A DNA stretch of 64,000 nucleotides from a phage: assembly GCA_025812035.1 (NCBI GenBank), contig GCA_025812035.1_4719.1. One strand, given 5' to 3'. The notes under the pieces were generated by a model. The model worked only from the letters and a program-made list of their open reading frames with translations, was not told where the DNA came from and searched no databases. Both the position numbers and the translations under genes were made by a program. Of this stretch, positions 1-56,856 are shown in pieces; positions within the stretch are counted from its first letter, which is position 1; each line of letters starts with the position of its first letter.

Positions 1-41
1 CGAAACGTCAACCGCTGCTATTACCGCTCTATTCTCCGCGT

Positions 42-1418
42 GTGCAGACGGAGTACTACGACGAGTATATTAACACAATTTTAGAGACTGTTCACGCTAT
101 TGTCTCGAATCGTCAGAAACCGTCAGAAGAGCAATTAGAGCAGTTTAATAAAGCCGCAATACAAACAGCCGCTGAGCAGGAATACCGCCCGAATGGTCAA
201 GCTCACGATCGAGCGCTGGAACGTAAGGGCAGTCAGTGGACCAACGTACCCGTAGACTCATCCGGCGTTGGTCGCGTTATTCCCGGCATTCCACAACCGA
301 ACCATATTCCTGATGATGTTGAAGCACCACTGACAGGAACGGACGCGATCTATTTCGCTATCCGTAATACGAAATCAGGTGCACCTGCGGTAATGCCGTT
401 ATGGCACAGCGGTATTAAGCTACAATTCAATCCACCGTCGAATGAACGTGTTGCGATTATGCATGAGCGTATTGCGCGCGATAAAATCCTGGGTGGGCGT
501 GATAGTGCGGGGTTCCTGTTTTCGGCAACGTCGATTATCACCATGAAGCATGCGATCGAATTAGCATTAGAATGCTGTTACATGGCCAACGTGCCGAATC
601 TGGACATTCAACGCCTGAAGGACATTATTCCGGTTACCGATGTTCCAGCGTTACTGTTAAACGTGTTGGTAACCATGTATCCGTACGGTTATCCTTACGT
701 ACAAACCTGTTATCAGAATCCAGAAACATGCGATTATCGTGTTGAAGATATCGTAAGCTTTGCGAAGCTTTATCAAGTTGACAACAGCGCAATTACCAAA
801 CGTATGCGACAGATCATGACCGAAGGTCCGGTCATGACAGATGAACTTTTGCGTGAGTATGCGAACGAGTTAGGTGAAACCAACTCCCGTACGCTGGATC
901 TGTCCGACAACGGTTCTGTTATCATCGAACTTGAAGTACCGAAGATCTCACGACAAATCGCCATGGGTGAACGCTGGTTAAGCGATACACTGGAAGATCT
1001 ACGTGATATTCTGTCACGTCCGTCAATGACCGAAGAAGAGCGCGATCGTGTTATTCGTGAACGTCAGTTCTATAGCTGGATGCGCCAGTATGACGCGTGG
1101 ATCAAATCGATGCATGTGTCGGTAAACGGTACCATGCGTCGTGTAAGTGATGCGGATACGGCAACGGTATTAGCACAGCTTTCACGTGACAGCGACCTTC
1201 GTGAGCGCTATATTGACGGACTGATGCAATTCATCGGTGATTCAACCATTGCGCTTGCGGCAATGCCTGCCTGGAAATGTCCGAAATGCAATGCTGATAC
1301 CGCCGATAATCTACGCGACCAGAAATACTACGACCTGATTGCTTTGGATGTACCCCAGCTTTTTTTTACCCTAAACTCCGTCCAATCTCTGCGGGAGGGG
1401 ATGGACGCGGTATTCTAA
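42..1418 (+). CDS. hypothetical protein, possibly 5' truncated at window edge
   Basis: 458-codon ORF from GTG at 42; frame stays open back to nt 3, so the true start may lie upstream of the window; C-terminal CPKC Cys pair; no family recognised. Confidence 0.5.
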   Translation: MQTEYYDEYINTILETVHAIVSNRQKPSEEQLEQFNKAAIQTAAEQEYRPNGQAHDRALERKGSQWTNVPVDSSGVGRVIPGIPQPNHIPDDVEAPLTGTDAIYFAIRNTKSGAPAVMPLWHSGIKLQFNPPSNERVAIMHERIARDKILGGRDSAGFLFSATSIITMKHAIELALECCYMANVPNLDIQRLKDIIPVTDVPALLLNVLVTMYPYGYPYVQTCYQNPETCDYRVEDIVSFAKLYQVDNSAITKRMRQIMTEGPVMTDELLREYANELGETNSRTLDLSDNGSVIIELEVPKISRQIAMGERWLSDTLEDLRDILSRPSMTEEERDRVIRERQFYSWMRQYDAWIKSMHVSVNGTMRRVSDADTATVLAQLSRDSDLRERYIDGLMQFIGDSTIALAAMPAWKCPKCNADTADNLRDQKYYDLIALDVPQLFFTLNSVQSLREGMDAVF

Positions 1419-1510
1419 TCGATCCGCGATATGGGTTACATGGCGGGCAACTTGTTCGTGACGATGAAAAAATCTGGCAGCTACTGTTAGCGCGTAAAGG
1501 CGACGGCGGC

Positions 1511-1840
1511 ATGAAGCTGAACATCGAAATGGGTATTGCGTACGATACCATGTTCGGTTTGTATGACCGCGTTAACGACTGGACACCGTTGAAATGGGTT
1601 GCCCAGCATCCTGCTGAAGACCCATGGGACAGATTAGGGATTAAACCCTTAATCGAGGATTACGTACGATTCGGTATTAAAGAGTTCATGTCGCTCGACG
1701 CATTTTTAAAAGCACCGTATCCTTATGCGCAAACGGTACTCAAGATCGCACAAGACGAGCTGCGGAAACGCAGTGCTGTATTGGACGACGATGAGGACAA
1801 GTTACGACGAGAAGAAGAACGTTTACGAAACGGAAGATAA
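1511..1840 (+). CDS. hypothetical protein
   Basis: 109-codon ORF, co-directional with flanking plus-strand genes; acidic C-terminus; no motif recognised. Confidence 0.4.
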   Translation: MKLNIEMGIAYDTMFGLYDRVNDWTPLKWVAQHPAEDPWDRLGIKPLIEDYVRFGIKEFMSLDAFLKAPYPYAQTVLKIAQDELRKRSAVLDDDEDKLRREEERLRNGR

Positions 1841-1841
1841 A

Positions 1842-2351
1842 ATGGCGAGATTTACCAGTTTGATTGGGTTGGACATTTGGGAGACACCTGCTGACGTTAG
1901 GGTTATTCCCGTTAACACTGTCGGTGTGATGGGACGTGGTCTTGCGAAGCAGGCAGCCGAGCGTGTGCCCGGTCTTCTTGAAGCGTACCGTAAGCACTGC
2001 TCTGATGGATTTAAGGTGGGCGAAGTCGTATCGTATCAGCACGGCGAGAACGATCAGCTCACCTACGTACTGTTTCCATCGAAATCGGATTGGCGTGAAA
2101 AAACACGACGCGAGTATATCGTTAGCGGCTTACTGGCGTTAAAGGCGTGGTTATTGGAGCTTCAGTTCGAAAGAGATGGCTTCTCATACCGGAGTCCGGC
2201 TGAACCGTTGATCGTAGCGATTCCTCCTGTTGGTTCTGGTTGCGGTAATATCGGTTACGGGCAATCCGAAACAATCCAGCCTCAATGGGTACGCGCACAA
2301 ATCAAACAGTATCTTGCCACCGTACCGAACGTTCATTTCTACTTGTTCTAA
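1842..2351 (+). CDS. macro-domain-like protein (putative ADP-ribose binding/hydrolase)
   Basis: ATG at 1842 preceded by GGAAG and placed 1 nt after the upstream stop; motif VIPVNTVGVMGRGLAKQ resembles the N-x-x-G-x-M-G-x-G-x-A core of OARD1/TARG1-type macro domains; ORF-track start 1725 rejected because it overlaps the upstream gene. Confidence 0.55.
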   Translation: MARFTSLIGLDIWETPADVRVIPVNTVGVMGRGLAKQAAERVPGLLEAYRKHCSDGFKVGEVVSYQHGENDQLTYVLFPSKSDWREKTRREYIVSGLLALKAWLLELQFERDGFSYRSPAEPLIVAIPPVGSGCGNIGYGQSETIQPQWVRAQIKQYLATVPNVHFYLF

Positions 2352-2367
2352 CGCAAAGGTAACATAA

Positions 2368-2399
2368 CCCTCCTCCAACCCGTAAGGGAAGGAGGAGGG
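2368..2399. terminator. GC-rich stem-loop (9-bp CCCTCCTCC/GGAGGAGGG stem, inner CCC-GTAA-GGG) between convergent genes; copy 1 of a 3-copy repeat
   Basis: perfect inverted repeat read directly; sits between the plus-strand gene ending at 2351 and the minus-strand gene ending at 2417; only a weak T-rich tail, so terminator role is inferred. Confidence 0.45.
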
Positions 2400-2416
2400 A
2401 ATATGCTGTTATGTTA

Positions 2417-2791
2417 TTAATGTTCGTTCCAAATGGCATCTTCCGGTGGGACGATAGGATCTTTCTTCGGCATTGACGGCACTTCATGACGATGCTTACG
2501 GAATTGCCTATCAATAACCTCACGAAGCCGGTACGCGTCAACCCACGTTGATTTATTGAATAACTCCAACGTCACGGTTAATCGCGTTCTTGACATTGAA
2601 TAGCTTTTCTTTGCAATCAAATCGGGATAATTCAGTTGAGCGAACCAGGCACGTATTTGCGCTTCGGTAAAAGCGATGCTGTAATAACTGAGTTTACCAT
2701 CATTAAAATCGTGCGCGTGGGTGTAACGTCCCGCATAACGCCAGACAAGATGCACATTCAGATCGATCCATGGTGGGGTGGTATCAGCCAT
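2417..2791 (-). CDS. hypothetical protein
   Basis: 124-codon ORF, first gene of the long minus-strand block; no motif recognised. Confidence 0.45.
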   Translation of the reverse strand: MADTTPPWIDLNVHLVWRYAGRYTHAHDFNDGKLSYYSIAFTEAQIRAWFAQLNYPDLIAKKSYSMSRTRLTVTLELFNKSTWVDAYRLREVIDRQFRKHRHEVPSMPKKDPIVPPEDAIWNEH

Positions 2792-2800
2792 GTGTTACCC

Positions 2801-3370
2801 TCAACGATTCTTCATCACTTTACCCAGGCTTTCGATATTATCCCAAAAGCGATTTTTACTTGGTGCGTCGCCAACGATAACCGACATCAAATCACGACGT
2901 TCGCGACTGATGATACCCTGCGATTTCCAGATCACCATCGTCCAACATGCAGCCAGAACGAACAGATGGTTAATACTCGGTTTGGTTTGTGCGATGAACG
3001 CAAGCCATGCCCAGATACCGGTGTATACTATCGTCACTAAAAAGAGAGAGATTGTTGCAACGACAACAACGAAGTTTTGGATGGCTGGCTGATTGGCATT
3101 ATCCTGAAAAGCGGTAAGATCGGGAAGATTACCTTCAACGGAACTCGTTTCATCGATTTCCAAGTCTTCGATTTCTTTTCGTGTGTCAGGAGCTAATCCA
3201 GCATCATCAAGATGCTTCTTTAACCGCTGAATACTTAATCGCTGACCAACAGGAATGCTGATGTTGTCGTAACTATTAAGCGCATCAACCAGGGAACGTC
3301 CGTCAACGAGAACCAAGCTCGCAGTACCCATCGTCTGCGGTTTTATTTTGTAAAGGTCTTTTACTTTCAT
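2801..3370 (-). CDS. hypothetical membrane protein
   Basis: 189 codons; long hydrophobic stretch FVVVVATISLFLVTIVYTGIWAWLAFIA consistent with transmembrane helices. Confidence 0.45.
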   Translation of the reverse strand: MKVKDLYKIKPQTMGTASLVLVDGRSLVDALNSYDNISIPVGQRLSIQRLKKHLDDAGLAPDTRKEIEDLEIDETSSVEGNLPDLTAFQDNANQPAIQNFVVVVATISLFLVTIVYTGIWAWLAFIAQTKPSINHLFVLAACWTMVIWKSQGIISRERRDLMSVIVGDAPSKNRFWDNIESLGKVMKNR

Positions 3371-3391
3371 GTAGACACCACCTCCAACGTG

Positions 3392-6004
3392 TTATGCGTC
3401 CGGCGTAAAATCAAAAGGAACGTCCGTACGAATGATATCATAGCGTTTTCCTAAGAAATAGAACTCCTCGGGGACCTGACCGGGAACAATACTATCGCCG
3501 ATGAACTGCGGATATGCCCAGATGTACTGAGTGAGTCCTTCGAACATATCCAGGTTATTTGCGTGGTTACCCATGATACGTTTCCAAAGTTCGCGTTTAT
3601 ACGGTGTTTTAACATCGAACCCATAAAGCGGTGCAAGATCCACACCAGGCACAAATCCCAGGTAGTAGTGGATCTGACTGACCGGGAAACCAAGCGTATC
3701 TCGCGGAATGGTGATCGCTTGCTCAGCCTTGGTGACATGCGTCTCAATAATCCAGTCGTAGCACTCCGAATAGAACCGATCGAATTTCTCTGGATTATAC
3801 CACGCTTTGGGAAGATTCAATTTCTCCGTAAAATCGTTCGACATGATCGTCGGCAAGAAAGGAAGTATGCCCGTCTTTATTTGCGTGTATTTTGATTTTA
3901 CGCGATTTACCAGATTCCAACAAGCATAACCGAGCTGATCGTTACAGAACTCAACGTACAGATCGTAATCCCCTCCCGATAATGGATTATTAATATCACC
4001 GATATCAGCTGCGTATTTGTTGGGGTATCGTGTATTAAATGCCAGTTTGGTTTGGTAATCGTAAATGCACGGTTTATTGTTCTTCGTGTTAATCCACCAC
4101 CATGGCTCACCTACCTGCACGCAAATGTCCTGGACATGAGGATAGATAATATCAGCAAATGCTGTTAACACATCCCCTAACCACGCCATCGCATGTTGGT
4201 TACATGGAGACAACAACCAAGACGGTGGCGTATATCCGGTTGCTGCTATGTTTCCTTCCCAATCCTGCTGCGCCCACTCGAATGGACACGCTGTACTCAT
4301 CAATTCGTAACTTAAACTGATGGTGACAGAGAAATGGTGTTTTGCGGCGTATGCAGCAAAGGCTTCATGCCATGCAATACAGGGTGGATTTAGTACATCT
4401 GTGGTGTTCACCAGTAACTTACCCGCACTTGGTGTCCAGACAGTATCGTAGAAATGCGACATTCCGACATAGTGCACTAATTCATCCTGATAACCCGCAT
4501 ACACCAGGTTTTCAAATACACGCTCTGGCGTGATGTTGTAATGGTCATCATAAGCGGTTATTGCACGAAGCTCATGCGGTGTGCAACGGTGACGATTAAC
4601 CGTCATTTCCTGGTACACCCCATCGATAGGAAGAATCTCGATGGTTAAACCAAGATCGATCGGCGTTTCCAGATAGGTCGTTTCTGTAGCACCTTCTTTA
4701 TAATGTCGAGAACTCATGCTGAACATCAACGATGTTACCGATTCAAGTTCGATGGGTTCGTCAGCATAGAACCCCGCCATCGCATCGTTGAAATCGATCG
4801 TCACGGTCGCACTCGTACCGTCTTTAGAAACGTCGGTTGCATATCGGGTTAATGAGATATACTGGCGACTATCGTCTTTGTGAACGACGGTTAAAACCGG
4901 TGGGTTTTCAGTATCAGCAAAATTACGCTGGTCGCCAGTAAACGTGATCTTCGCTTTAAAGATCAAACCGAATAACGACGTCATGGGGGCATACGCAACG
5001 CAACCATGATCCAGTGTATCCGTTGTTCGCCATTCTATCCCGACCAACCCGTTAGCGGTATGACATCGCATATACGCGTTAAGTACCATGTCTTCACTGA
5101 CAACCGCGAAGTTCTCTGTTGACTGACCGTTGATAATCCAATACATCGGTTGCCAAAGATTACGAGTACCTTTTGCATAGCGGTAGGTTGGCGCGCCTTT
5201 TGGGTTGCCGTTATTAAGATGGAATACAGCAGTACCTTGGTAGTGATCGTTCGTATTAATCGGAACGCTGTAAGCGTCACCGATATCCGTACGTTCGACC
5301 TTAGCGACTGTTGCGTTTTCAAACAGTCCACGTAGCGTAGGAAGACCAATATCTTCAGGCGCGTTTTCTCGACGAATCGCATCCGCGATGCGATGGGCTA
5401 AGGCGGGGTAAATGACTTCACCTTGTTGCAGGTTCGCAAGCCCTGCGAAACGATCGGGGTCGATGCCAGCAATCAATAACTCGACATCACCCTTCGTTCT
5501 ATCGTCGCGGAGGTATTTCAGTCCAGTAAGATCGAGATGTCGAATTAACGACAACAGATCGTACTTACGGTTTTCAACAGTCAGTTCGAGATCACCTGCC
5601 CAAACCAAACTTCCCTCATCCGCCGCTACTCTAACGGATTGTCGGCCTGTGGTAGATGTTGTTGTCGTTTTATTTAATTGCTCTTGTAGGAAGTCGGTTG
5701 CGAGGTCAAAGGCAACGCCGTAACGGTCAGCGACGGCTTGCATGATTTCACGTAACTGGGTATCTTCTTCAATGATAATCTTGACAGGTATTCCCAAGAA
5801 CGCTTTAGTGAGGTCCCGCTTAACCATCGAGACGAATACGGATTTGTAATACCGGCTTCCATCTTTCCCTTTAAAAAGAATGGAAGTTGTTTCGGGTGAC
5901 GATAGAACACGTGCAAATTCAACATCGTCGAATGTAAGAGAAAGTCCGTTTTTCTCGTTGGTTAATCTTAATATTTCATTTTGCGCGGTTTCATGTAACT
6001 TCAT
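3392..6004 (-). CDS. tail fibre/spike protein, member of shared-N-domain family
   Basis: 870 codons; N-terminal ~170 aa (NEILRLTNEKN...FDDVEF...YKSVFVSMVKRDLTKAFLGIPVKII...YGVAFDLATDFLQEQLNK) is homologous to the N-termini of ORFs at 12028-12555, 12712-14466 and 51773-53227; large unique C-terminal domain. Confidence 0.6.
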   Translation of the reverse strand: MKLHETAQNEILRLTNEKNGLSLTFDDVEFARVLSSPETTSILFKGKDGSRYYKSVFVSMVKRDLTKAFLGIPVKIIIEEDTQLREIMQAVADRYGVAFDLATDFLQEQLNKTTTTSTTGRQSVRVAADEGSLVWAGDLELTVENRKYDLLSLIRHLDLTGLKYLRDDRTKGDVELLIAGIDPDRFAGLANLQQGEVIYPALAHRIADAIRRENAPEDIGLPTLRGLFENATVAKVERTDIGDAYSVPINTNDHYQGTAVFHLNNGNPKGAPTYRYAKGTRNLWQPMYWIINGQSTENFAVVSEDMVLNAYMRCHTANGLVGIEWRTTDTLDHGCVAYAPMTSLFGLIFKAKITFTGDQRNFADTENPPVLTVVHKDDSRQYISLTRYATDVSKDGTSATVTIDFNDAMAGFYADEPIELESVTSLMFSMSSRHYKEGATETTYLETPIDLGLTIEILPIDGVYQEMTVNRHRCTPHELRAITAYDDHYNITPERVFENLVYAGYQDELVHYVGMSHFYDTVWTPSAGKLLVNTTDVLNPPCIAWHEAFAAYAAKHHFSVTISLSYELMSTACPFEWAQQDWEGNIAATGYTPPSWLLSPCNQHAMAWLGDVLTAFADIIYPHVQDICVQVGEPWWWINTKNNKPCIYDYQTKLAFNTRYPNKYAADIGDINNPLSGGDYDLYVEFCNDQLGYACWNLVNRVKSKYTQIKTGILPFLPTIMSNDFTEKLNLPKAWYNPEKFDRFYSECYDWIIETHVTKAEQAITIPRDTLGFPVSQIHYYLGFVPGVDLAPLYGFDVKTPYKRELWKRIMGNHANNLDMFEGLTQYIWAYPQFIGDSIVPGQVPEEFYFLGKRYDIIRTDVPFDFTPDA

Positions 6005-8503: not shown

Positions 8504-11500
8504 TACATAAACTCCTCGATGATGCAAATCCCATTAGCACCACGCCCACCAGGCTTAGCGCTTCCTGAGAAAGAGTTGTCGTAAGCACCACCACCACCCG
8601 AACCAGGCGCGAGGCCGTTGTGGGCGGTGCCAACACCGGCGCGACCGCCACCGCCCCAATATGACGCACCCCCACACCCACCGACAGTAATAGTACCGGC
8701 TTGTCCGTCGCCACCGTCTCCGCCCGGAATGCGTATATCCCCGGTATTAGGTACGCCCCCATAGCCACCACCAGTGTTTGTGATAGTTGTTTTTCCTGCG
8801 CCTTGCCCGCCGGGAGCGGTTAGCAGGGATGCAAATTTACTATCCCCACCCCCGTTTCCAGATGTTGCTCCAGAGCCGCCGGAACCACCAGAACCAATTA
8901 CAACAGAATAACTAGTAGCTGATATCGTTATAACCGAAATTACTGTTCCACCGGCCCCACCGCCAGCACCAAAAAACGTTTCACCGTTGGAAAAAGCCTG
9001 GCAACCACCGCCACCGCCTCCACCACCGGTTATTGTTACTCTAATCCGTTTTGTTCCTTGTGTTGGGGTGTACGTCCCTGACGATGTGAAAACACGCATG
9101 TTCAGTAAACGTCCGACATATCCGCTAGAATCGGCTAAACCAAGATCTTTAGCTGCTAACGTGATATTAGCTGTACCGTCAAACGGTTTACCGTTAATCG
9201 TGCGCGCAGTCTGCAACTTCGTCGCCGTTGCTGCGTTTCCTGATGTATTCTGGTTTCCCGCGGCGTTAACACCCGGCAGATTGATGTTCGCACTACCGTC
9301 GAAAGACACCCCACCAATGGTGCGAGCTGTTTTCAGTTTTGTCGCCGTGGCAGCATTACCGGTCGTGTCTTGGTTACCGGTGGTGTTTACCCCAGGCAGG
9401 TTGATATTTGCCGTTCCGTTAAATGAAACACCACCAATCGTCCTTGCCGTTTGCAACTTCGTTGCGGATGCCGCATTCCCCGTGGTGTTTTGGTTACCCG
9501 TTGCATTCACGCCCGGGATACTATCCTTAGATGTGTAGATCTGTGCCCATTCCGACCAGTTCGAATCGGTTGCATCACGACGTGAACGTAGGTAAGCTGG
9601 AGCGTGTGCGCCCGCGGTACCTGACCACCCAATAAAGATCTCGCCTTCACCGACCGATGAAGCGCCTTTAAGATGAATGACGTTACCATAAGCGGTAGGA
9701 TATCCGTTATTGTACGCTTCATACATCTGGATGCCCGCATTGCTGCCCTGAGCTGTGTTAGCTAAAGCCGTAACACGACCTTTGGAGGCGAGAGCGGTAA
9801 TACTGAAGCTAATGTCCTTAGTACCGTCAAAGGCGACCCCATTAATCTTCCGTGCTGTTTGGAGTTTCGTGGCAGTAGCCGCATTACCAGAGGTACTCTG
9901 ATTACCTGCTTTGTTCACGCCTGGTAAATCAATGTTGGCTGTTCCATCAAAGGACACGCCCCCTATGGTTCTCGCCGTCTGAAGTTTTGTTGCTGAGCCA
10001 GCGTTTCCGGAAGTGCTTTGATTACCTGCCGCGTTGACACCCGGTAGGTTAATGCTAGCAGAACCATCAAAAGAAACTCCACCTATCGTGATCGGTGTTT
10101 TCAATTTCGTGGCTGTCGCGGCGTTACCCGTCGTATTCTGATTACCGGCTGCATTGACGCCAGGTAATGCGATATCGGCCGTACCGTCGAACGCGACACC
10201 ACCGATTTTACGGGCGGTTTGTAGCTTGGTCGCTGTAGCCGCGTTACCGCTGGTATTTTGCGTGCCCGCTTTATTTACACCGGGAAGATCGATGTTGGCA
10301 GAACCATCGAATCTGACGCCACCTATCGTTCTTGCAGTAGCAAGTTTAGCTGCTGTGGCTGCATTATTGCCCACTTTTAGCCAATCATCCCATGGACCAT
10401 CCTGGCCGTTCCACGACGCCGTTAAACCACGTACGTAAATATTGCCTGTACGTACAGTGTACCGTTGCATCCCACCGAATTGTCCGGCTGGGAGTACTTC
10501 AAGGTAACCTGCGGCATTTGCTTCAGGGAAATTGTGGGCGGCGTCCGCGTTCGTCGCTATTGGTTTAGACCAAATACCCACAGACGCTTCAACCGGACCG
10601 TAGGTATTCAGATTTGCGTCAGCAGGGAGTGGTCCTCGGAAACGCAGTAATTGTATTGGCGTTAACCCCAACGTTCTTTGCATTCCCTCGACACTCGATT
10701 GCGATAAAAGTGCCCGAGCTGTCGACGTGATGGTCGCTAAAGCAACCTTGTCGACTCCAGTGAAATAAGGGAATTTGTTCGCTGATGTCGCTAAACCTGA
10801 AAAGGCGGTCAGTAATGCATTAAGGGGTTGCTTCCCAGCTAACGCTTTCGTTACTGTCGTTGAGAAATTAGGATCACTTCCTATAGCTCGAGCCAGCTTA
10901 TTAAGCGTATTTAGCGCATCTGGAGACGAGTCAATCAACGACGTGATCGCACGCATCACAAATTCCGTGTTGGCAATCTGTCGACTGCTATTGTTAATTG
11001 CTGCGGTGGGTGTTGTTGGAGTACCGGTGAATACAGGACTATTAAGATCCGCCTTGAGAGCAATGAGGCGTTTAAGTGCTTCGACATCGACTTTCAGGTT
11101 TTCCCACCCGATGAGAGAACCGTCTCCGTTGGTATGATAACGGTTATACCAGAAGTCGCCGTTAACACCCCAAAAGAATATACCTTTCTCTTCGTTTTGC
11201 GGGCCGGAACTATTTCGCGATGAGCCGATATATTTGATTTCAATAAGACCCTCAAACACGACTCCCGGGATTATTTTGTTGTCTCCAGCTGACTGTACTA
11301 CTTGATAAACTCCAGGCGTTGCTGCTCTAACCCATGTTAAGAATTCCGTTATTCCAGCGGTGCCACTGAAACGCTTAACGTCGGTAAGTATCGCCCCATA
11401 ACCGAACATACCCGGTAACGCAACTCGTCCGCCGGTACGGTCACGAATATTTGAGGCAACGACGGGCAGCTTTTTACGAACGCTGTTAACCGCCTTAGGT

Positions 11501-12711: not shown

Positions 12712-14466
12712 TTATGCTGCTACGTATCCAGGCCAACGTTCTCTTGGCCAGTTTGTTGCACCCTGTCCGACGGTGTCTTTACCAGAAATGACGTTACTTA
12801 CATCCCATCCACTCAGATCCTGATTGAATGCGGTGTTCTCGCGCATCATGAGATCGATCTTACGTAGTGAGTGGGTATTCCAACCAGATATGTCTTGGTT
12901 GAATGCTTTATTGTAGGCAAACATGTTAGACACGTTCTGTAATTTTGACGTGTTCCAACCACTGATGTCGCTATTGAACGACGTGCTTGAGAACATGCTG
13001 CTCGCATCAACAAGATTGTCGGTTTTCCAATTAACCACTTTATCGCCGTCAAATGCATTGCTGCTGCTGAACATAAAACTCATATTGCTAGCTTTGGACA
13101 CATCCCATTTATCTAACCCTTTACCGACGAACTCATTACATGCCGAGAACATCCAGCTCATATCGGTAACCCGACTCACGTTCCATTTGCTGAAGTCAAG
13201 GTTAAGTTTCTGACACCCTAAGAAGGTCTTATACATGTTGGTGATGCGACTAACATCCCACTCTTGGATGTTAGGGTCGTTAAGCGTCGTTAAGTAGTTG
13301 AACAATGTCGCTAACGACGTCCATTTCTCTGGAATCCGGTTTGGTACCGTACGAAGCGATGCAAGGTTGTTGGTTGACGGAGAGCAGAACATACCGTTAT
13401 CCCAATTTACGATTTCCGTAATTTTGGACCCTTTGATCGTCTGAGTGGTATTACCATCTTTCACTATACCCGTAGCAACGATGGTATATTCACCGGTGCC
13501 TGCATAATCGTGGGCGTAGGCACCGTTACTTGAGGTCTCCGTTACTTTATTCCCATCACCCCAATCGATATTAACTTTATCCCACCCACTTAGGTTGAAC
13601 TGTACTTTGCCTCCGGTAGCTTTTAGGATGTATTTACCTCCATTGTCGGTAAAATAGCAGACAACCATTGAACCGTACAGATTACCTATCCGCCAATCAT
13701 CCTTTTCTGTCACTGCGATTTGCGCTAAGCCACGCTGTACGAAGAGTACTGTGCGGTTCTCGTCAGTCTGTAATGTGGCTAATGCTTGGGCCTTATCGTC
13801 CTCGCTAATTTCATTAGCGCTCACTAAAACGCTTAACATTCTTTCGAAGTATTCGATGGGTAATTGACGTCCTACAGACTTATCAACCGACGGTTCAGCA
13901 AGATCGCCCAACGCTGCAGTGGTGGCCAGCATCAACGAACCCTTGGTCATATCTGTTTCTTGTAGGTAGTGCAGTCCTGTAATCTGGTACGCTTGAATAA
14001 TCGTAATCAGGTTCAGCGTATCGTTAACGACCTGTACTTGTAAATGTCCAGACCATACGTAGCTGCTTTCGGCAATTGGTAGTTCGACCGACTGGATACC
14101 TGATGTTTCAAAGGTGATCTTCTTGTTAAGATCGGTTTCCAGGAAATCAACAGCGAGGTCAAAATTTATACCGTACTTCTCAGCGATAGAATCCACGATG
14201 TTTCTGAAAGCAACGTCATTATTTACGATGAAACGTAATGGGATTCCTGCAAACGCTCTAGCAATGTCTCGACGAACATACGTGAGCGACTGCTCGAAGA
14301 AATAGGGGCTACCATCTCGCGGTTTAATGGTCACCTGACATACTTCGGGATATTCAGCTGGGATTAACGACACGAATTCAACATCGGATTCTTTCAATGA
14401 AAGCATATTCTTCCGGTTTACTAATGCCAGAAGATCGGCTTTCCAACCAGGATAAACTGTAGACAT
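12712..14466 (-). CDS. tail fibre-like protein with PKD-like segment and DUF285-type repeats
   Basis: start revised to ATG at 14466 (GGAGTG upstream; MSTVYPGWKADLLALVN aligns with paralog N-termini); IDWGDGNKVT...YAHDYAGTGEYTI is PKD-like; C-terminal repeats of type FNQDISGWNTS..M..MF are DUF285/BspA-like. Confidence 0.6.
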   Translation of the reverse strand: MSTVYPGWKADLLALVNRKNMLSLKESDVEFVSLIPAEYPEVCQVTIKPRDGSPYFFEQSLTYVRRDIARAFAGIPLRFIVNNDVAFRNIVDSIAEKYGINFDLAVDFLETDLNKKITFETSGIQSVELPIAESSYVWSGHLQVQVVNDTLNLITIIQAYQITGLHYLQETDMTKGSLMLATTAALGDLAEPSVDKSVGRQLPIEYFERMLSVLVSANEISEDDKAQALATLQTDENRTVLFVQRGLAQIAVTEKDDWRIGNLYGSMVVCYFTDNGGKYILKATGGKVQFNLSGWDKVNIDWGDGNKVTETSSNGAYAHDYAGTGEYTIVATGIVKDGNTTQTIKGSKITEIVNWDNGMFCSPSTNNLASLRTVPNRIPEKWTSLATLFNYLTTLNDPNIQEWDVSRITNMYKTFLGCQKLNLDFSKWNVSRVTDMSWMFSACNEFVGKGLDKWDVSKASNMSFMFSSSNAFDGDKVVNWKTDNLVDASSMFSSTSFNSDISGWNTSKLQNVSNMFAYNKAFNQDISGWNTHSLRKIDLMMRENTAFNQDLSGWDVSNVISGKDTVGQGATNWPRERWPGYVAA

Positions 14467-14618
14467 AAGCACTCCAATCATGGGGCGGTAACCGCACCCA
14501 ACGGTTAAATTGTCGATTATGGTCGTTGCTGATAAGACGACCATAACCAACGATGTTTAATATGTAGTATATTGATATCATGACGTTATGGGGATCTAAG
14601 TCATACCATGGAGACGGC

Positions 14619-38666: not shown

Positions 38667-39551
38667 TCAATAACGGCCGTAGCGTTCCTCGAGCCGTTCT
38701 GGTTTTCTCAGAAGGCTATCTTTAAGCGGTACGACGTCGATATCAACACTCTCTGAGTAATAGCCGTTAGAACTACCATACCAACGGATGACAACACAGC
38801 CCTTCGCAGTGCGGATATGGTAGAATGTCCATTGTGTACGTTCGCTATAATAGCCGTAGTCATCGGTTCTTTCCTCGGTTCTTTCTTCAGCACTGAGTAT
38901 CTTTTCACCGATGATATCGTTAATATCGCCCTCAATGTCTTCAAGATACACCTCTTCGCAGCAATCCTGCTGATGACAGAATTCGACAACGTTTCCATCG
39001 CCGCGATAGAAAAGAAGGGCGATACCGTTTCGTAATTGCTCGCTCGTTACATCAGACACGCAATGCAAACTTTTATCGTCGGTTATCACCAAGACATTGT
39101 TGATTACATGCCCGGCAAGCGCTCCAATCTTATTTACCGTAACAATCGGACGAACCGGTTCAGATTGAACGATAGGAATACGGACACAACCAATTAAGGC
39201 CATCCGTCCTTTCGTTGGTCTAACCGCAAGATAAGGTGATTTTCTTGGGTGGTTATGTAGTCGTATTTCTACTTCGTTGAATTTAATCCCGTATGAACAC
39301 AGAAAATAATTGAATAGTTTACGGAATTCCTCGGTTGCTTCTTGCAACGTGATGTTATTTACTGTGAGTTTATGTCCCCTAAACACCCGGGTTAAATCGA
39401 TAACATCCAGTGTTTTGAAATATATTTCCGTAAGGGGATGACCCGTGTATTCCAGGCAAGTAATTGTTCTTTGAACCACGATTTTAGGCGGTGCGCCTTT
39501 AAAACGTTTCAGGTATTTAACGCGATAACGGGTATGATCTGACGTTAACAT
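38667..39551 (-). CDS. hypothetical protein
   Basis: start revised to ATG at 39551 (AGGAGAGGAG 7 nt upstream); the ORF-track N-terminus at 39552-39650 coincides with a hairpin+TTTATGCCG element and is more likely 5' UTR. Confidence 0.5.
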   Translation of the reverse strand: MLTSDHTRYRVKYLKRFKGAPPKIVVQRTITCLEYTGHPLTEIYFKTLDVIDLTRVFRGHKLTVNNITLQEATEEFRKLFNYFLCSYGIKFNEVEIRLHNHPRKSPYLAVRPTKGRMALIGCVRIPIVQSEPVRPIVTVNKIGALAGHVINNVLVITDDKSLHCVSDVTSEQLRNGIALLFYRGDGNVVEFCHQQDCCEEVYLEDIEGDINDIIGEKILSAEERTEERTDDYGYYSERTQWTFYHIRTAKGCVVIRWYGSSNGYYSESVDIDVVPLKDSLLRKPERLEERYGRY

Positions 39552-39616
39552 TTTAATCTCCTCTCCTGGCTTCAGAGAATTCTCAAAATCCGTTAGTTTT
39601 GATAGACGGGATAAGA

Positions 39617-39646
39617 CGGCATAAAAGCCTCCCGTATTGGGAGGCT
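39617..39646 (-). promoter_or_regulatory. stem-loop (AGCCTCCC/GGGAGGCT, 8 bp) followed by TTTATGCCG box
   Basis: hairpin 39626-39646 and box 39617-39625 in minus sense, about 65 nt upstream of the revised start at 39551. Confidence 0.45.
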
Positions 39647-39658
39647 CCATTAATCGGC

Positions 39659-53636: not shown

Positions 53637-54598
53637 TCAATTTCTCCATTCTTATCTTGGTCGCAGTCGCATTCTTCGTTGTTCTTCTTACTTAAACGTA
53701 AGACACCGAGTGCAGCATGCTTGAGTTCTTGCAAGGCGCTTTTCAGCTGACCTTCTTCGTCGAAATCAAAATACTTCTCGTTGTAGCTTAATGCTGGAAT
53801 CATATTTACGAGAGGTTCGATGGCAGGCATCAGCATTTCAATGACGACCTTAGGGTCAACAAAACGTTCAAACCCTTCAGGAAGTTTACTTGCCACAACC
53901 TTATCGTTCTTGATGTAGAATTTGTTCTTGAACAAATCGTCAAGAATAGCGTTTTCTTCATCCGTGCGTTCCGCATAAGGACGATCGATCATCTGAACGA
54001 AAACACCATTCAATGTTTCAGGTACAGATGGATTTTCACGAATCGAAACCCCACCAGGAATCTCAATATCGATCTTCGCCCACTCAACTACCTGATGGTC
54101 TCGCGTGTAGATAACATCTACTTCCCACGCCAGACCGTCAGGACTTTCTACGGTGTAACGTGTTTTCGCTTGACCTTCCGGAGCCATACGCTCAATGGCA
54201 TCAAACATCTCGACCGGAATTTCTACTTCGCTTTCCGTCGCGTCACCTGGACCGCGATACACCTTCGTGGTCATGATGTATTTCGGTTCTTCGTTACCGA
54301 TCTGTATCGCACGTGCGCGCACCTGACCTTTCACACCACCAACGGCTGTGTTATCGAACAACCATTGATGTTGCACCATATGTTCAATTTTCGATGCTAC
54401 TTGACGAAGACGTTCAACGCCATCTTCGGCCAGTTTGCCAAAGAAGACCAGCTCACGTTCCTGCTGTGTCTCACCACTTAACATCATTAAATTGGCGATT
54501 TGTTTCACGCCTCTTACTTTTGACATACATGCTCCGGTTATAAGGGTCTGTTTCCAGACCCCTCGTTGATTTTTGATTTCACCAAACGCTATCGTCAC
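53633..54598 (-). CDS. hypothetical protein
   Basis: 321 codons; 4-nt overlaps with the genes on both sides suggest an operon with the helicase. Confidence 0.45.
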   Translation of the reverse strand: MTIAFGEIKNQRGVWKQTLITGACMSKVRGVKQIANLMMLSGETQQERELVFFGKLAEDGVERLRQVASKIEHMVQHQWLFDNTAVGGVKGQVRARAIQIGNEEPKYIMTTKVYRGPGDATESEVEIPVEMFDAIERMAPEGQAKTRYTVESPDGLAWEVDVIYTRDHQVVEWAKIDIEIPGGVSIRENPSVPETLNGVFVQMIDRPYAERTDEENAILDDLFKNKFYIKNDKVVASKLPEGFERFVDPKVVIEMLMPAIEPLVNMIPALSYNEKYFDFDEEGQLKSALQELKHAALGVLRLSKKNNEECDCDQDKNGEIE

Positions 54599-56856
54599 AA
54601 TTCGAAATCTTCATCGATAACGCGCTGTGTGAGCACCTTGTCACTGAAGAACTCTACTTTGCGCTGATGGTATTTACGGTGCGCTTCGATAGAGGTACAC
54701 ACCAGATACCAGAACGTTGGCGTCATTCCTTCAAACTTCCCTTTCAGCTGACGCAGTCGCCCCAACACCTGAATGTTACCGGTTCGTGATCCCATCGCTA
54801 ACGTCATGAACGCCATCACCAAATCAGGGAGGTCGATACCTGTCCCCGCCGATTTCACGGTTGTAACGCTGATATCGTTATCCAACAAGACCATGAAATC
54901 TTCTTCAGCGGTATAAGGACCGATCTCTAACTCGGGAATACGTTCACTGAGATAGTGCGACAATGACTTACACATATCAACGGTTGCACAATACACCAGC
55001 ATCTTCATACCTTCCTGATACTGGTTCATGAAACCTTTGATGATAACCGTATAGATAAAGTTGAAATACGCGAGTTTGAGTTGCTTATTCTTCATGATAG
55101 ACTGTTCGAATATCGTGTGTGAATAAGAACCCCCAAAGCCTTTGTATCTGATTTTATCTGTACTACGTAGTCGATACGTCACGGCATTTACCGCAATGTA
55201 TTTCTTGTATTCGCCTTTTGCGAAACGCGCTTCTTTCGGATACATCAAATACAACATCCGCTCGATGAACGGATCATCGGATACCGCTGTTGCCGACAGA
55301 TAAATGATTTCCGGAATATTGGCGTAACACTTGACTTTAAACAAGAAATGCAAGGCTTCGTGACATTCGTCGTGAATCAGTAGACCTATACCCGTCTTTT
55401 CCCAAAACTCAGCGGGATGGAAGGCGTATGGCGCAACGCAGTTATTCTTCTCGTAGTCCGCAATATAACGTTGGAACATGTTCAAGGAGAATAACGCGAT
55501 TTTGAAATCCAGCTCGCCTTGTTCCACCAACGTCTGGAATTCCAGCATGCTGTAACGAGGAATGTCGGGATGCGGTGGATCCTCCTTAGCGTTCCCGCGT
55601 ATCTCAATAACGTCCCCTGGTTCCATTCCGAAGAAGTTCAGCAATGAGCTTCGCCAACCTGGCATATACCGTGGAGAGAGTATGATGCCTGTGCGTACAC
55701 CACGTCGAAACACGATTTCCTGTGACATCGCGGTGTTGTGTGTGACGATGTGGTCTTTAATGACATAAAGGCTTTCGTCATTATCCACCGTGATGCAACG
55801 TGCTTTCGCTTTAACTGTCGGTACGATGCTATCAATCGCTAAACCAGGAAGCCTGTTAACAGGGAGATCGTCTGGAATCTCAACGTCGTCAGGAATAAGC
55901 TTAAGTAAATCGGAATGATAAATTAATGTCTCCATCGTGTAACTATCGATGGGGCATTTATACGCAATTCCTCCTAACTGATACGCCAACTCCCAAACCT
56001 TGGTTGTTATCTGTGAATCAACGGTTCTGACCGCAAGGTGAGCCTGTCCGTTTTCGATTCGCAACTCACAACGACCTTTGACCACCACCTTAAATTCTTC
56101 GAGACCTACGAGTTCTTTCGGTTCGTAAAGTCGGATTCTTATCGGACGGGGTCTGGCAGGTTTATCGTAAAGACATTCCATGATTTCGTCTGTGCTGAGA
56201 ACCTTATCGGGGTCAGTACAACGCCAGAGATGATCGCCACAAGCTTCAACCATTCTACCGTCCTCAAAGAAGATAGCATAAAGCTGAATATTGTCATGAT
56301 CGAAGATCGCTGTAACGTTGGTCGGTAGCCCATTCGCACCAATAACCCGATCCCCTACTTGAAGCTCACCAATCGGCTTCCAACCACCTGGAACCTTTAC
56401 AGGCGTATGAAGCGCTAGCGCTTTGCCACTGCCTGTTTGAGCGGTGTTTAGGCTCATTCTGAAGGGGGTATCCTTACCCCCGTTCATGTACTCCAGCCAT
56501 TCTTGCTGATCTTCTCGCCACGGAAACTTCCATTTCTTTACGAACTCCACTTCCTTACCGGGTACCGGATCATGGTAAACGATCTCCAGCCACTCTTTTC
56601 GGATTCCTCGGGAAAAGATAAAATCCAAAAACGATTTCAACTGTTCGCGGAGTAAGTATACCTCGCTATAATCGCTTCTCGCTGCGGCATACGTGTTTAT
56701 GGTATCGGTAACCATTCTCCGTGTACGAGGGTCACGTCGTTTCCTCAGATGCAAACAACGGTCTCGAAGGTAATGGCCGATAAGATGGGCAAATCGAAGT
56801 CCGTATCCGCTCAGCTTCATGCCATGCGAGAAGACGTCGATACGAGCTAACTTCAT
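54595..56856 (-). CDS. DExH-box helicase interrupted by an intein
   Basis: Walker A AQTGSGK...T split by an insertion; motif II LIHDECHE; SAT; motif V/VI VKSAGTGIDLPD and QVLGRLRQ. Confidence 0.7.
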   Translation of the reverse strand: MKLARIDVFSHGMKLSGYGLRFAHLIGHYLRDRCLHLRKRRDPRTRRMVTDTINTYAAARSDYSEVYLLREQLKSFLDFIFSRGIRKEWLEIVYHDPVPGKEVEFVKKWKFPWREDQQEWLEYMNGGKDTPFRMSLNTAQTGSGKALALHTPVKVPGGWKPIGELQVGDRVIGANGLPTNVTAIFDHDNIQLYAIFFEDGRMVEACGDHLWRCTDPDKVLSTDEIMECLYDKPARPRPIRIRLYEPKELVGLEEFKVVVKGRCELRIENGQAHLAVRTVDSQITTKVWELAYQLGGIAYKCPIDSYTMETLIYHSDLLKLIPDDVEIPDDLPVNRLPGLAIDSIVPTVKAKARCITVDNDESLYVIKDHIVTHNTAMSQEIVFRRGVRTGIILSPRYMPGWRSSLLNFFGMEPGDVIEIRGNAKEDPPHPDIPRYSMLEFQTLVEQGELDFKIALFSLNMFQRYIADYEKNNCVAPYAFHPAEFWEKTGIGLLIHDECHEALHFLFKVKCYANIPEIIYLSATAVSDDPFIERMLYLMYPKEARFAKGEYKKYIAVNAVTYRLRSTDKIRYKGFGGSYSHTIFEQSIMKNKQLKLAYFNFIYTVIIKGFMNQYQEGMKMLVYCATVDMCKSLSHYLSERIPELEIGPYTAEEDFMVLLDNDISVTTVKSAGTGIDLPDLVMAFMTLAMGSRTGNIQVLGRLRQLKGKFEGMTPTFWYLVCTSIEAHRKYHQRKVEFFSDKVLTQRVIDEDFEL
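55735..56421 (-). other. intein (~229 aa) inserted in the helicase P-loop
   Basis: N-terminal block ALALHTPVKVPGGWKPIGELQVGDRVIG resembles intein block A but begins with Ala; C-terminal block ...SLYVIKDHIVTHN followed by Thr; removing it restores GSGKT. Confidence 0.55.

What the first reader, a model, noticed from the sequence alone, without database searches (positions are those of the whole stretch)
1842..2351. Macro-domain-like protein as a candidate counter-defence factor
The core VIPVNTVGVMGRGLAKQAAERVPG resembles the ADP-ribose-binding loop of OARD1/TARG1-type macro domains. Macro domains remove ADP-ribose from proteins or nucleic acids, so a phage-encoded copy could reverse host ADP-ribosylating defences such as DarT-like toxins, or process ADP-ribose-derived signals. 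It is the last gene of a short plus-strand island ending at a bidirectional hairpin.
Basis: inference. Interest (0 to 1): 0.55.

Follow-up and report, generated by a model that had tools for sequence, protein, structure and literature searches.

The report
Phage anti-DarT macrodomain (AdfM), already described
The gene is a real stand-alone macrodomain enzyme of a Goslar-like nucleus-forming E. coli jumbo phage.

Summary
The ORF at 1842-2351 (+) is real and encodes a 169-aa macrodomain. It passes the Pfam Macro cut-off. It matches PADLOC DarG at 1e-22 and solved DarG macrodomains at 6e-15. The AF2 model (pLDDT 87) lands first on DarG, then TARG1, then Poa1p. The residues matching DarG N22 and K80 are present (N25, K81) and invariant among relatives.

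The window is 91% identical to Escherichia phage Goslar, a chimallivirus. The protein is 96% identical to Goslar gp83. Morgan et al. 2026 (Cell Rep, PMC13309987) list gp83 by accession as an AdfM homologue. They showed that PhiKZ gp104 removes DarT2-made ADP-ribose from ssDNA. AdfM from PhiKZ, PhiPA3 and Asesino is imported into the phage nucleus. PhiKZ and PhiPA3 need it to grow on DarTG2 hosts.

Points left open:
- Neither this protein nor Goslar gp83 has been assayed.
- The Goslar clade is a divergent branch, 33% identical to the tested proteins.
- It carries a 13-residue insertion before the second glycine-rich loop.
- The RefSeq start of Goslar gp83 looks 17 codons too long.

Seen in passing: a class-3-like intein in the P-loop of a helicase, absent from Goslar.

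The parts
1842..2351 (+). adfM-like gene: 169-aa stand-alone DarG2-type macrodomain (stop included); orthologue of Goslar gp83
1832..1836 (+). GGAAG, a Shine-Dalgarno-like motif 5 nt upstream of the ATG at 1842
   Evidence: read directly from the sequence; inference
1914..1916 (+). Codon for N25. It corresponds to T. aquaticus DarG N22 and PhiKZ AdfM N23; the N23A mutation reduces PhiKZ AdfM activity.
   Evidence: alignments; PMC13309987
1923..1940 (+). First glycine-rich ADP-ribose-binding loop, G28-V-M-G-R-G33
   Evidence: G28, M30, G31 and G33 are invariant in A1 and A2
2082..2084 (+). Codon for K81 in the FPSK..W motif. It corresponds to the catalytic K80 of T. aquaticus DarG and K78 of PhiKZ AdfM.
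   Evidence: PMC13309987 Fig. 1 legend
2166..2207 (+). Insertion between the long helix and the next strand, about residues 109-122. The model is less confident here. The K-to-loop-2 distance is 47 residues, against 34 in 133 of 145 family representatives. PhiKZ-clade proteins have a smaller expansion at the same site.
2223..2246 (+). Second glycine-rich loop, P128-P-V-G-S-G-C-G135
   Evidence: P128, G131, G133 and G135 are invariant in A1
2368..2399 (.). GC-rich hairpin (9 bp plus an inner 3 bp) between convergent genes. Goslar annotates the equivalent site as a terminator.
   Evidence: not called by the T-run-based scan
1511..1840 (+). Upstream gene of the same + strand block (orthologue of Goslar gp082, 109 aa, function unknown)
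1..1418 (+). 3' part of the Goslar gp081 orthologue (PHROG 4585, function unknown). Its 5' end lies outside the window.
2417..2791 (-). Convergent downstream gene (orthologue of Goslar gp084, function unknown), first of a - strand virion and tail gene block

Best explanation
The gene encodes an AdfM-type orphan antitoxin, a stand-alone DarG2-like macrodomain made by a Goslar-like nucleus-forming jumbo phage of E. coli. Host DarT2 toxins ADP-ribosylate thymidines in single-stranded phage DNA (TNTC-type motifs), which blocks replication and packaging. This enzyme binds the ADP-ribose moiety in its two glycine-rich loops and hydrolyses the base-ribose bond using the conserved Lys (K81) with Asn (N25). 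That restores unmodified DNA. By analogy with PhiKZ, PhiPA3 and Asesino AdfM, it is probably imported into the phage nucleus and works there alongside the chimallin shell. Shown here: fold, family, catalytic residues, orthology to Goslar gp83, absence of a DarT-binding domain and of a neighbouring darT. Inferred: substrate, anti-DarTG2 role and localisation.
For: Family and fold:
- Pfam Macro is above its gathering score.
- PADLOC DarG matches at 1.3e-22 and NCBIfam antitoxin_DarG at 3.9e-23. Both cover only the macro half of the profile, positions 8-143 of 329 and 7-146 of 338.
- Solved DarG macrodomains 5M31/5M3E match at 6e-15 and 5M3I at 7.5e-12.
- The AF2 model has pLDDT 87 and pTM 0.85. 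Its best structural matches are T. aquaticus, M. tuberculosis and T. africanus DarG, then TARG1.

Catalytic residues: N25, K81 and both glycine loops are invariant across relatives and across tested AdfMs.

Orthology: the window is 91% identical in DNA to phage Goslar. The protein is 95.9% identical to Goslar gp83, which RefSeq annotates as 'macro domain-containing protein ... similar to ORF104 phiKZ'.

Published function (PMC13309987):
- PhiKZ gp104 removes DarT2 ADP-ribose from DNA in vitro, and N23A reduces this activity.
- It rescues cells from DarT2 toxicity.
- PhiKZ and PhiPA3 deletion mutants are restricted by DarTG2.
- AdfM from PhiKZ, PhiPA3 and Asesino localises to the phage nucleus.
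- Goslar gp83 (YP_009820768.1) is in their AdfM alignment.

Other support: purifying selection, 30 synonymous against 7 non-synonymous codon differences. The TNTC motif is not depleted in the window (2323 observed, 2277 +/- 45 expected), so the phage DNA offers many DarT2 target sites.
Against: Neither this protein nor Goslar gp83 has been assayed. The tested homologues are only 33% identical.

With PhiKZ gp104 as query, many DarG-like proteins score far higher than the Goslar clade, above 91 bits against about 66 bits. A quick neighbour-joining tree does not recover a single chimallivirus clade (7% bootstrap support). The Goslar clade is thus a divergent branch and could be an independent capture.

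It carries a 13-residue insertion next to the second binding loop, and the model is weak at residues 111-120 and 131-140.

Macrodomains of this class can also act on protein, RNA or small-molecule ADP-ribose substrates. Sequence alone does not fix the substrate.
Confidence: 0.8

Rival explanations
1. It is a general ADP-ribosylhydrolase whose relevant target is not DarT2-modified DNA. Candidates are ADP-ribosylated proteins or RNA produced by other host defences (for example mRNA-modifying CmdT-like toxins) or by the phage's own transferases.
For: TARG1, the second-best structural match, acts on protein glutamate-linked ADP-ribose as well as on DNA (established knowledge). The Goslar clade is divergent and has a clade-specific insertion near the binding site.
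Against: The closest sequence and structure matches are DarG, not MacroD or other protein-directed families. Tested chimallivirus homologues act on DarT2-modified DNA. No ADP-ribosyltransferase is annotated in the corresponding ~68 kb of Goslar, although most genes there are 'hypothetical'.
Confidence: 0.1
2. It is an ADP-ribose-1''-phosphate phosphatase or O-acetyl-ADP-ribose deacetylase (Poa1p/YmdB-like housekeeping chemistry). This is what the database labels suggest: 'phosphatase', 'Appr-1-p processing', 'regulator of RNase III'.
For: PHROG 335 is labelled 'phosphatase'. The Goslar note cites cd02901 Macro_Poa1p_like. Poa1p structures are significant fold matches at E about 2e-7. JGI names for relatives read 'O-acetyl-ADP-ribose deacetylase'.
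Against: Poa1p matches are much weaker than DarG and TARG1 (rmsd above 5 A against 2.0-2.5 A). The catalytic Lys of the DarG/TARG1 class is conserved. These labels are inherited annotation, not tests. 5M3I, an M. tuberculosis DarG macrodomain, itself carries the legacy name 'RNase III inhibitor'.
Confidence: 0.05
3. It is a non-catalytic ADP-ribose binder (reader or sponge), for example sequestering ADP-ribose-derived immune signals.
For: Macrodomains that only bind do exist (established knowledge).
Against: Both catalytic positions, N25 and K81, are retained and invariant in the clade. The homologue is an enzyme. No similarity to known signal sponges was seen in any search.
Confidence: 0.03

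Closest known systems
AdfM (anti-DarT factor macro) of chimalliviruses: PhiKZ gp104, PhiPA3 gp108, Asesino gp217, Goslar gp83 (Morgan et al. 2026, Cell Rep, PMC13309987)
   Same: It is a stand-alone macrodomain of about 160-170 aa in a nucleus-forming jumbo phage. The N and K catalytic residues and both glycine loops are conserved. The N-terminus has the same MA.F start. It is 96% identical to Goslar gp83, which the authors list as a member.
   Different: It is only 33% identical to the experimentally tested members. The Goslar clade is a separate long branch with the largest insertion before loop 2. BLASTP found no similarity between its two upstream genes and the genes in the corresponding positions upstream of the PhiKZ-type (KTN4) AdfM gene. 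It has not been tested.
DarG2 antitoxin of DarTG2 toxin-antitoxin systems (T. aquaticus 5M31/5M3E, M. tuberculosis 5M3I, T. africanus 7OMU)
   Same: It has the same macrodomain subclass and the best sequence and structure matches (E 6e-15; TM 0.86-0.88; rmsd 2.0-2.5 A). The catalytic Asn and Lys are conserved.
   Different: It lacks the C-terminal DarT-binding domain and has no adjacent darT. It scores 82 bits against the 250-bit NCBIfam equivalog cut-off. It is encoded by a phage as an orphan.
Human TARG1/OARD1 (C6orf130)
   Same: It has the same fold subclass, second-best in the structure search (E 3e-10, TM 0.81-0.86). TARG1 uses a catalytic Lys mechanism.
   Different: Identity is 16-18%. 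TARG1 is a eukaryotic enzyme acting mainly on proteins.
AdfN (T4 gp30.3), a NADAR-type orphan antitoxin against DarTG1; AdfA and AdfB, small DarT-binding inhibitors
   Same: The same strategy, a phage-encoded counter to DarTG. AdfN is likewise an antitoxin-like enzyme without its toxin (PMC11825919).
   Different: The folds and specificities differ. AdfN is a NADAR enzyme for guanine-linked ADP-ribose. AdfA and AdfB are non-enzymatic binders.

Membership tests
AdfM (chimallivirus anti-DarT macrodomain) | Encoded by a chimallivirus (nucleus-forming jumbo phage) | tested here: met
   The window is 91% identical to Escherichia phage Goslar over 6 kb and collinear with it over most of the window. 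PMC13309987 treats Goslar as a chimallivirus.
AdfM (chimallivirus anti-DarT macrodomain) | Stand-alone DarG2-like macrodomain | tested here: met
   169 aa. The DarG profiles match only in their macro half. The best fold matches are DarG macrodomains.
AdfM (chimallivirus anti-DarT macrodomain) | Catalytic Asn (PhiKZ N23) and Lys (PhiKZ K78) conserved | tested here: met
   N25 and K81 align with them and are invariant.
AdfM (chimallivirus anti-DarT macrodomain) | Recognised homology to named members | tested here: met
   95.9% identical to Goslar gp83 (YP_009820768.1), which appears in the authors' AdfM alignment. 33% identical to the PhiKZ-type, PhiPA3 and Asesino proteins. Monophyly with the PhiKZ clade is not resolved.
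AdfM (chimallivirus anti-DarT macrodomain) | Removes DarT2-made ADP-ribose from ssDNA and protects the phage from DarTG2 | not testable with these tools
   Shown only for PhiKZ (biochemistry) and for PhiKZ and PhiPA3 (genetics) in PMC13309987.
AdfM (chimallivirus anti-DarT macrodomain) | Imported into the phage nucleus (PicA pathway) | not testable with these tools
   Shown for the PhiKZ, PhiPA3 and Asesino proteins. No import signal is defined that could be searched for.
DarG2 antitoxin (type II/IV TA system DarTG2) | N-terminal macrodomain with catalytic Lys | tested here: met
DarG2 antitoxin (type II/IV TA system DarTG2) | C-terminal DarT-binding domain (full length about 330-340 aa) | tested here: not met
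   The protein ends at residue 169. The profile match stops at position 143 of 329 (PADLOC) and 146 of 338 (NCBIfam). The score is 82 bits against a 250-bit cut-off.
DarG2 antitoxin (type II/IV TA system DarTG2) | Adjacent darT toxin gene | tested here: not met
   The two upstream + strand genes have no Pfam match at all. The downstream genes are convergent and have no PHROG match; they were not scanned against Pfam. No DarT-like gene is annotated in the Goslar neighbourhood.
TARG1/OARD1-type macrodomain | TARG1-like fold with catalytic Lys after strand beta-5 | tested here: met
   TARG1 structures match at E 3e-10 to 7e-9, TM 0.81-0.86. K81 is conserved. The second TARG1 catalytic residue (Asp125) was not examined.
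Poa1p-like ADP-ribose-1''-phosphate phosphatase | Closest similarity to Poa1p | tested here: inconclusive
   Poa1p is a significant fold match but clearly weaker than DarG and TARG1 (E about 2e-7, rmsd above 5 A). The active-site residues were not compared, and enzymatic side activity cannot be excluded.

The most novel reading that the evidence does not exclude
The Goslar-clade protein may not be a simple functional copy of PhiKZ AdfM. It could be a separately captured or strongly diverged DarG-like macrodomain. Its clade-specific 13-residue insertion before the second binding loop and the extended loop after it might give it a different substrate range, such as other DarT variants, other modified bases or ADP-ribosylated RNA. 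Alternatively they might carry the determinant for import into the E. coli phage nucleus.
Probability: 0.1. Interest if true: 0.4.

Novelty: already known. Interest (0 to 1): 0.15.

Why it matters
The finding confirms that a reader working from raw sequence alone can recognise a genuine counter-defence gene. The biology is significant: the phage nucleus is not a perfect shield, and chimalliviruses need an enzymatic eraser of DNA ADP-ribosylation. That was published in 2026, with the Goslar orthologue named. What this window adds is small. It provides a second allele of the E. coli-phage member, evidence that the RefSeq start of Goslar gp83 is probably wrong, and the observation that the Goslar clade is a divergent, insertion-bearing branch whose activity still needs a direct test in E. 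coli.

Tried and rejected
- Synteny with PhiKZ: the two genes upstream of the macrodomain show no BLASTP similarity to the PhiKZ-type (KTN4) genes in the same positions. Positional orthology with PhiKZ could not be used. Synteny does hold within the Goslar lineage, including a relative only 47% identical.
- Terminator scan: it found no T-run terminator in 1-3500. The hairpin is real, but its terminator role rests on the Goslar annotation only.
- TNTC motif avoidance as an alternative anti-DarT2 strategy: the motif is not depleted.
- Phylogeny: the first bootstrap attempt timed out. A faster neighbour-joining tree gave three well-supported chimallivirus clades but no supported union. Single or multiple acquisition is left open.
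- The word-indexed protein search found only 15 relatives. The exhaustive profile search was needed to see the family, with 17,639 representatives.
- Pfam on the full-length helicase gave nothing. The intein was only seen after isolating the insert.
- Signal-sponge and anti-Thoeris-type roles: no similarity was seen in any library, and the catalytic residues are retained.

Full report
**The observation.** An ORF runs from ATG 1842 to TAA 2349-2351 on the + strand and encodes 169 residues. The start at 1842 lies one base after the stop of the upstream gene (1511-1840) and is preceded by GGAAG at a 5-nt spacing. RefSeq annotates the Goslar orthologue from an ATG that corresponds to window 1791, which would overlap the upstream gene by 50 nt. 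The shorter form is more likely. Its N-terminus (MARF...) aligns with the N-termini of PhiKZ-type and PhiPA3 homologues (MAEF...). Three database orthologues, including one only 47% identical, are called as 169-aa proteins starting there.

**What it is.**
- The protein passes the Pfam Macro gathering score: 25.3 bits against 22, E 1.5e-5.
- It matches PHROG 335 at 7.5e-19.
- It matches the PADLOC DarG model at 1.3e-22 and NCBIfam antitoxin_DarG at 3.9e-23.
- In both DarG profiles only the N-terminal macro half is covered: positions 8-143 of 329 and 7-146 of 338. The NCBIfam score of 82 bits is far below the 250-bit equivalog cut-off. It is therefore a DarG-like macrodomain, not a DarG antitoxin.
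- Among solved structures the best sequence matches are the macrodomains of T. aquaticus DarG (5M31/5M3E, 6e-15) and M. tuberculosis DarG (5M3I, 7.5e-12).
- An AlphaFold2 model built on a 14-sequence alignment has mean pLDDT 87 and pTM 0.85. It is weaker at about residues 111-120 and 131-140.
- Foldseek against the PDB ranks T. aquaticus DarG first (E 6e-14, TM 0.88, rmsd 2.0 A). M. tuberculosis DarG and T. africanus DarTG follow, then human TARG1/C6orf130 (E 3e-10), then Poa1p and viral macrodomains.
- N25 and K81 align with DarG N22 and K80. They are invariant across the relatives, as are both glycine-rich loops.
- The exhaustive profile search finds 17,639 cluster representatives at E <= 1e-3. 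They are a mix of stand-alone proteins of about 150 aa and DarG-length proteins of about 300-350 aa.

**Where it sits.**
- The first 6 kb of the window is 91% identical to Escherichia phage vB_EcoM_Goslar. Most of the window up to 60.3 kb is collinear with the Goslar sequence fetched.
- The protein is 95.9% identical to Goslar gp83, with 7 substitutions, none at conserved positions. Thirty codons differ synonymously and 7 non-synonymously, which indicates purifying selection.
- The gene is last in a + strand block (orthologues of gp080-gp083) surrounded by - strand genes. The same order of four + strand genes (150, 536, 119 and 169 aa) is kept in a much more distant relative.
- A strong GC-rich hairpin (2368-2399) lies between it and the convergent gene 2417-2791. 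It folds on either strand with z-scores of -4.8 and -6.4. It lacks a T-run. Goslar annotates the equivalent site as a terminator.

**What is already known.** Morgan et al. 2026 (Cell Rep, PMC13309987) describe AdfM, 'anti-DarT factor macro'. Their findings:
- Macrodomain proteins related to PhiKZ gp104 occur in about half of chimalliviruses.
- AdfM from PhiKZ, PhiPA3 and Asesino localises to the phage nucleus.
- PhiKZ AdfM removes the ADP-ribose that DarT2 puts on the second T of TNTC in DNA, and N23A reduces this activity.
- PhiKZ AdfM neutralises DarT2 toxicity.
- PhiKZ and PhiPA3 lacking AdfM lose several logs of titre on DarTG2-expressing hosts and accumulate ADP-ribosylated DNA.
- Their Figure 1B alignment lists Goslar gp83 (YP_009820768.1) among the homologues.

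The same paper states that no macrodomain Adf had been reported before. Earlier anti-DarT factors are AdfA and AdfB, which are small toxin binders, and AdfN, a NADAR enzyme against DarTG1 (PMC11825919).

**Most likely mechanism.** The protein is an orphan DarG2-like ADP-ribosyl-DNA glycohydrolase. Host DarT2 modifies thymidines in single-stranded phage DNA. The enzyme binds the ADP-ribose in its two glycine-rich loops and cleaves it off using K81 with N25. Replication and packaging can then proceed. By analogy with its homologues it probably acts inside the phage nucleus.

- Shown here: fold, family, catalytic residues, orthology, the lack of a DarT-binding domain and the lack of a neighbouring darT gene.
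- Inferred: substrate, the anti-DarTG2 phenotype and localisation.
- TNTC is not depleted in the window (2323 sites, 2277 +/- 45 expected). The genome is therefore not protected by avoiding the motif.

I put this explanation at 0.8.

**Caveats and the remaining open point.**
- Neither this protein nor Goslar gp83 has been tested.
- It is only 33% identical to the tested AdfMs.
- With PhiKZ gp104 as query, many DarG-like proteins score higher than the Goslar clade, above 91 bits against about 66.
- A quick neighbour-joining tree recovers three strongly supported chimallivirus groups: the Goslar clade, PhiKZ plus Noxifer, and an Erwinia/Salmonella phage group. It does not recover their union, at 7-28% bootstrap support. 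One or several acquisitions remain open.
- One shared character is suggestive. The distance from the catalytic Lys to the second loop is 34 residues in 133 of 145 representatives. It is 46-47 in the Goslar clade and 38-43 in the PhiKZ clade, and it is not expanded in the Salmonella phage SPLA3 protein.
- Rival readings cannot be excluded by sequence but have little support. They are another ADP-ribosylated substrate, Poa1p-like phosphatase chemistry as the legacy labels suggest, or a non-catalytic binder.

**Verdict.** The finding is already known as AdfM, so interest is low. The most novel reading left is that the divergent, insertion-bearing Goslar clade has a different specificity or carries an import determinant (probability about 0.1).

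**Seen in passing.**
- The helicase at 54595-56856 (-) carries a 229-residue intein-like insertion exactly inside its Walker A motif: GSGK|ALAL...THN|T. The insertion is absent from Goslar and resembles the mycobacterial DnaB inteins 6RIX/6RIY/6BS8.
- A 327-aa DUF7448 gene has no counterpart in Goslar at that position.
- A 612-aa DUF7941 plus DUF285 protein replaces the Goslar gp092-gp093 tail region.

Noticed in passing
window 54595-56856 (-), insertion at about 55735-56421: The SF2 DNA helicase is 97% identical to Goslar gp164 (524 aa) but is 753 aa long here. A 229-residue insertion sits exactly inside Walker A: Goslar reads TGSGK|TAMSQ, the window reads TGSGK|ALALHTPV...IVTHN|TAMSQ. The insert matches the mycobacterial DnaB inteins 6RIX/6RIY/6BS8 (3e-12) and the gp41-1 intein. 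It starts with Ala and ends with HN followed by Thr, and it has W, C and T at positions that resemble the class-3 'WCT' pattern. It is absent from Goslar, so it is probably a mobile intein with a large middle domain of unknown kind.
   Followed up: partly
window 38667-39650 (-): A 327-aa ORF with a C-terminal DUF7448 domain (3.7e-24) lies in an ~0.9 kb stretch that has no counterpart in Goslar at that position. It sits between the orthologues of gp142 and gp143.
   Followed up: partly
window 12712-14550 (-): A 612-aa protein has an N-terminal DUF7941 domain and C-terminal DUF285 (BspA-like) repeats. It occupies the place of the Goslar tail protein gp092 and of gp093, whose sequences are missing from the window. 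This is a likely swap of a tail or receptor-binding module, suggesting a different host range from Goslar.
   Followed up: partly
L001 7789-8349 (Goslar NC_048170 92868-93428), equivalent to window 1791-2351: The RefSeq start of Goslar gp83 is probably 17 codons too far upstream. It overlaps gp082 by 50 nt. The ATG equivalent to window 1842 matches the N-termini of the PhiKZ and PhiPA3 AdfMs and of 169-aa database orthologues.
   Followed up: yes
protein P0002: A 96%-identical copy of the macrodomain protein is deposited as a hypothetical protein of Salmonella enterica serovar Muenchen, on an 809-nt contig. This is probably Goslar-like phage DNA in a bacterial assembly, from contamination or from an infection of Salmonella.
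   Followed up: no
L003 4001-4489 (Pseudomonas phage KTN4, PhiKZ-type AdfM): The KTN4 record notes the AdfM orthologue as a 'putative virion-associated protein'. If AdfM is packaged in the virion, it could be delivered with the DNA and act before it is expressed late in infection. This was not examined.
   Followed up: no
window 9150-10620: The tail-fibre gene region (orthologue of Goslar gp090) matches several shifted positions of the Goslar gene at 64-85% identity. This points to internal repeats and to a variable, probably recombining, fibre segment.
   Followed up: no
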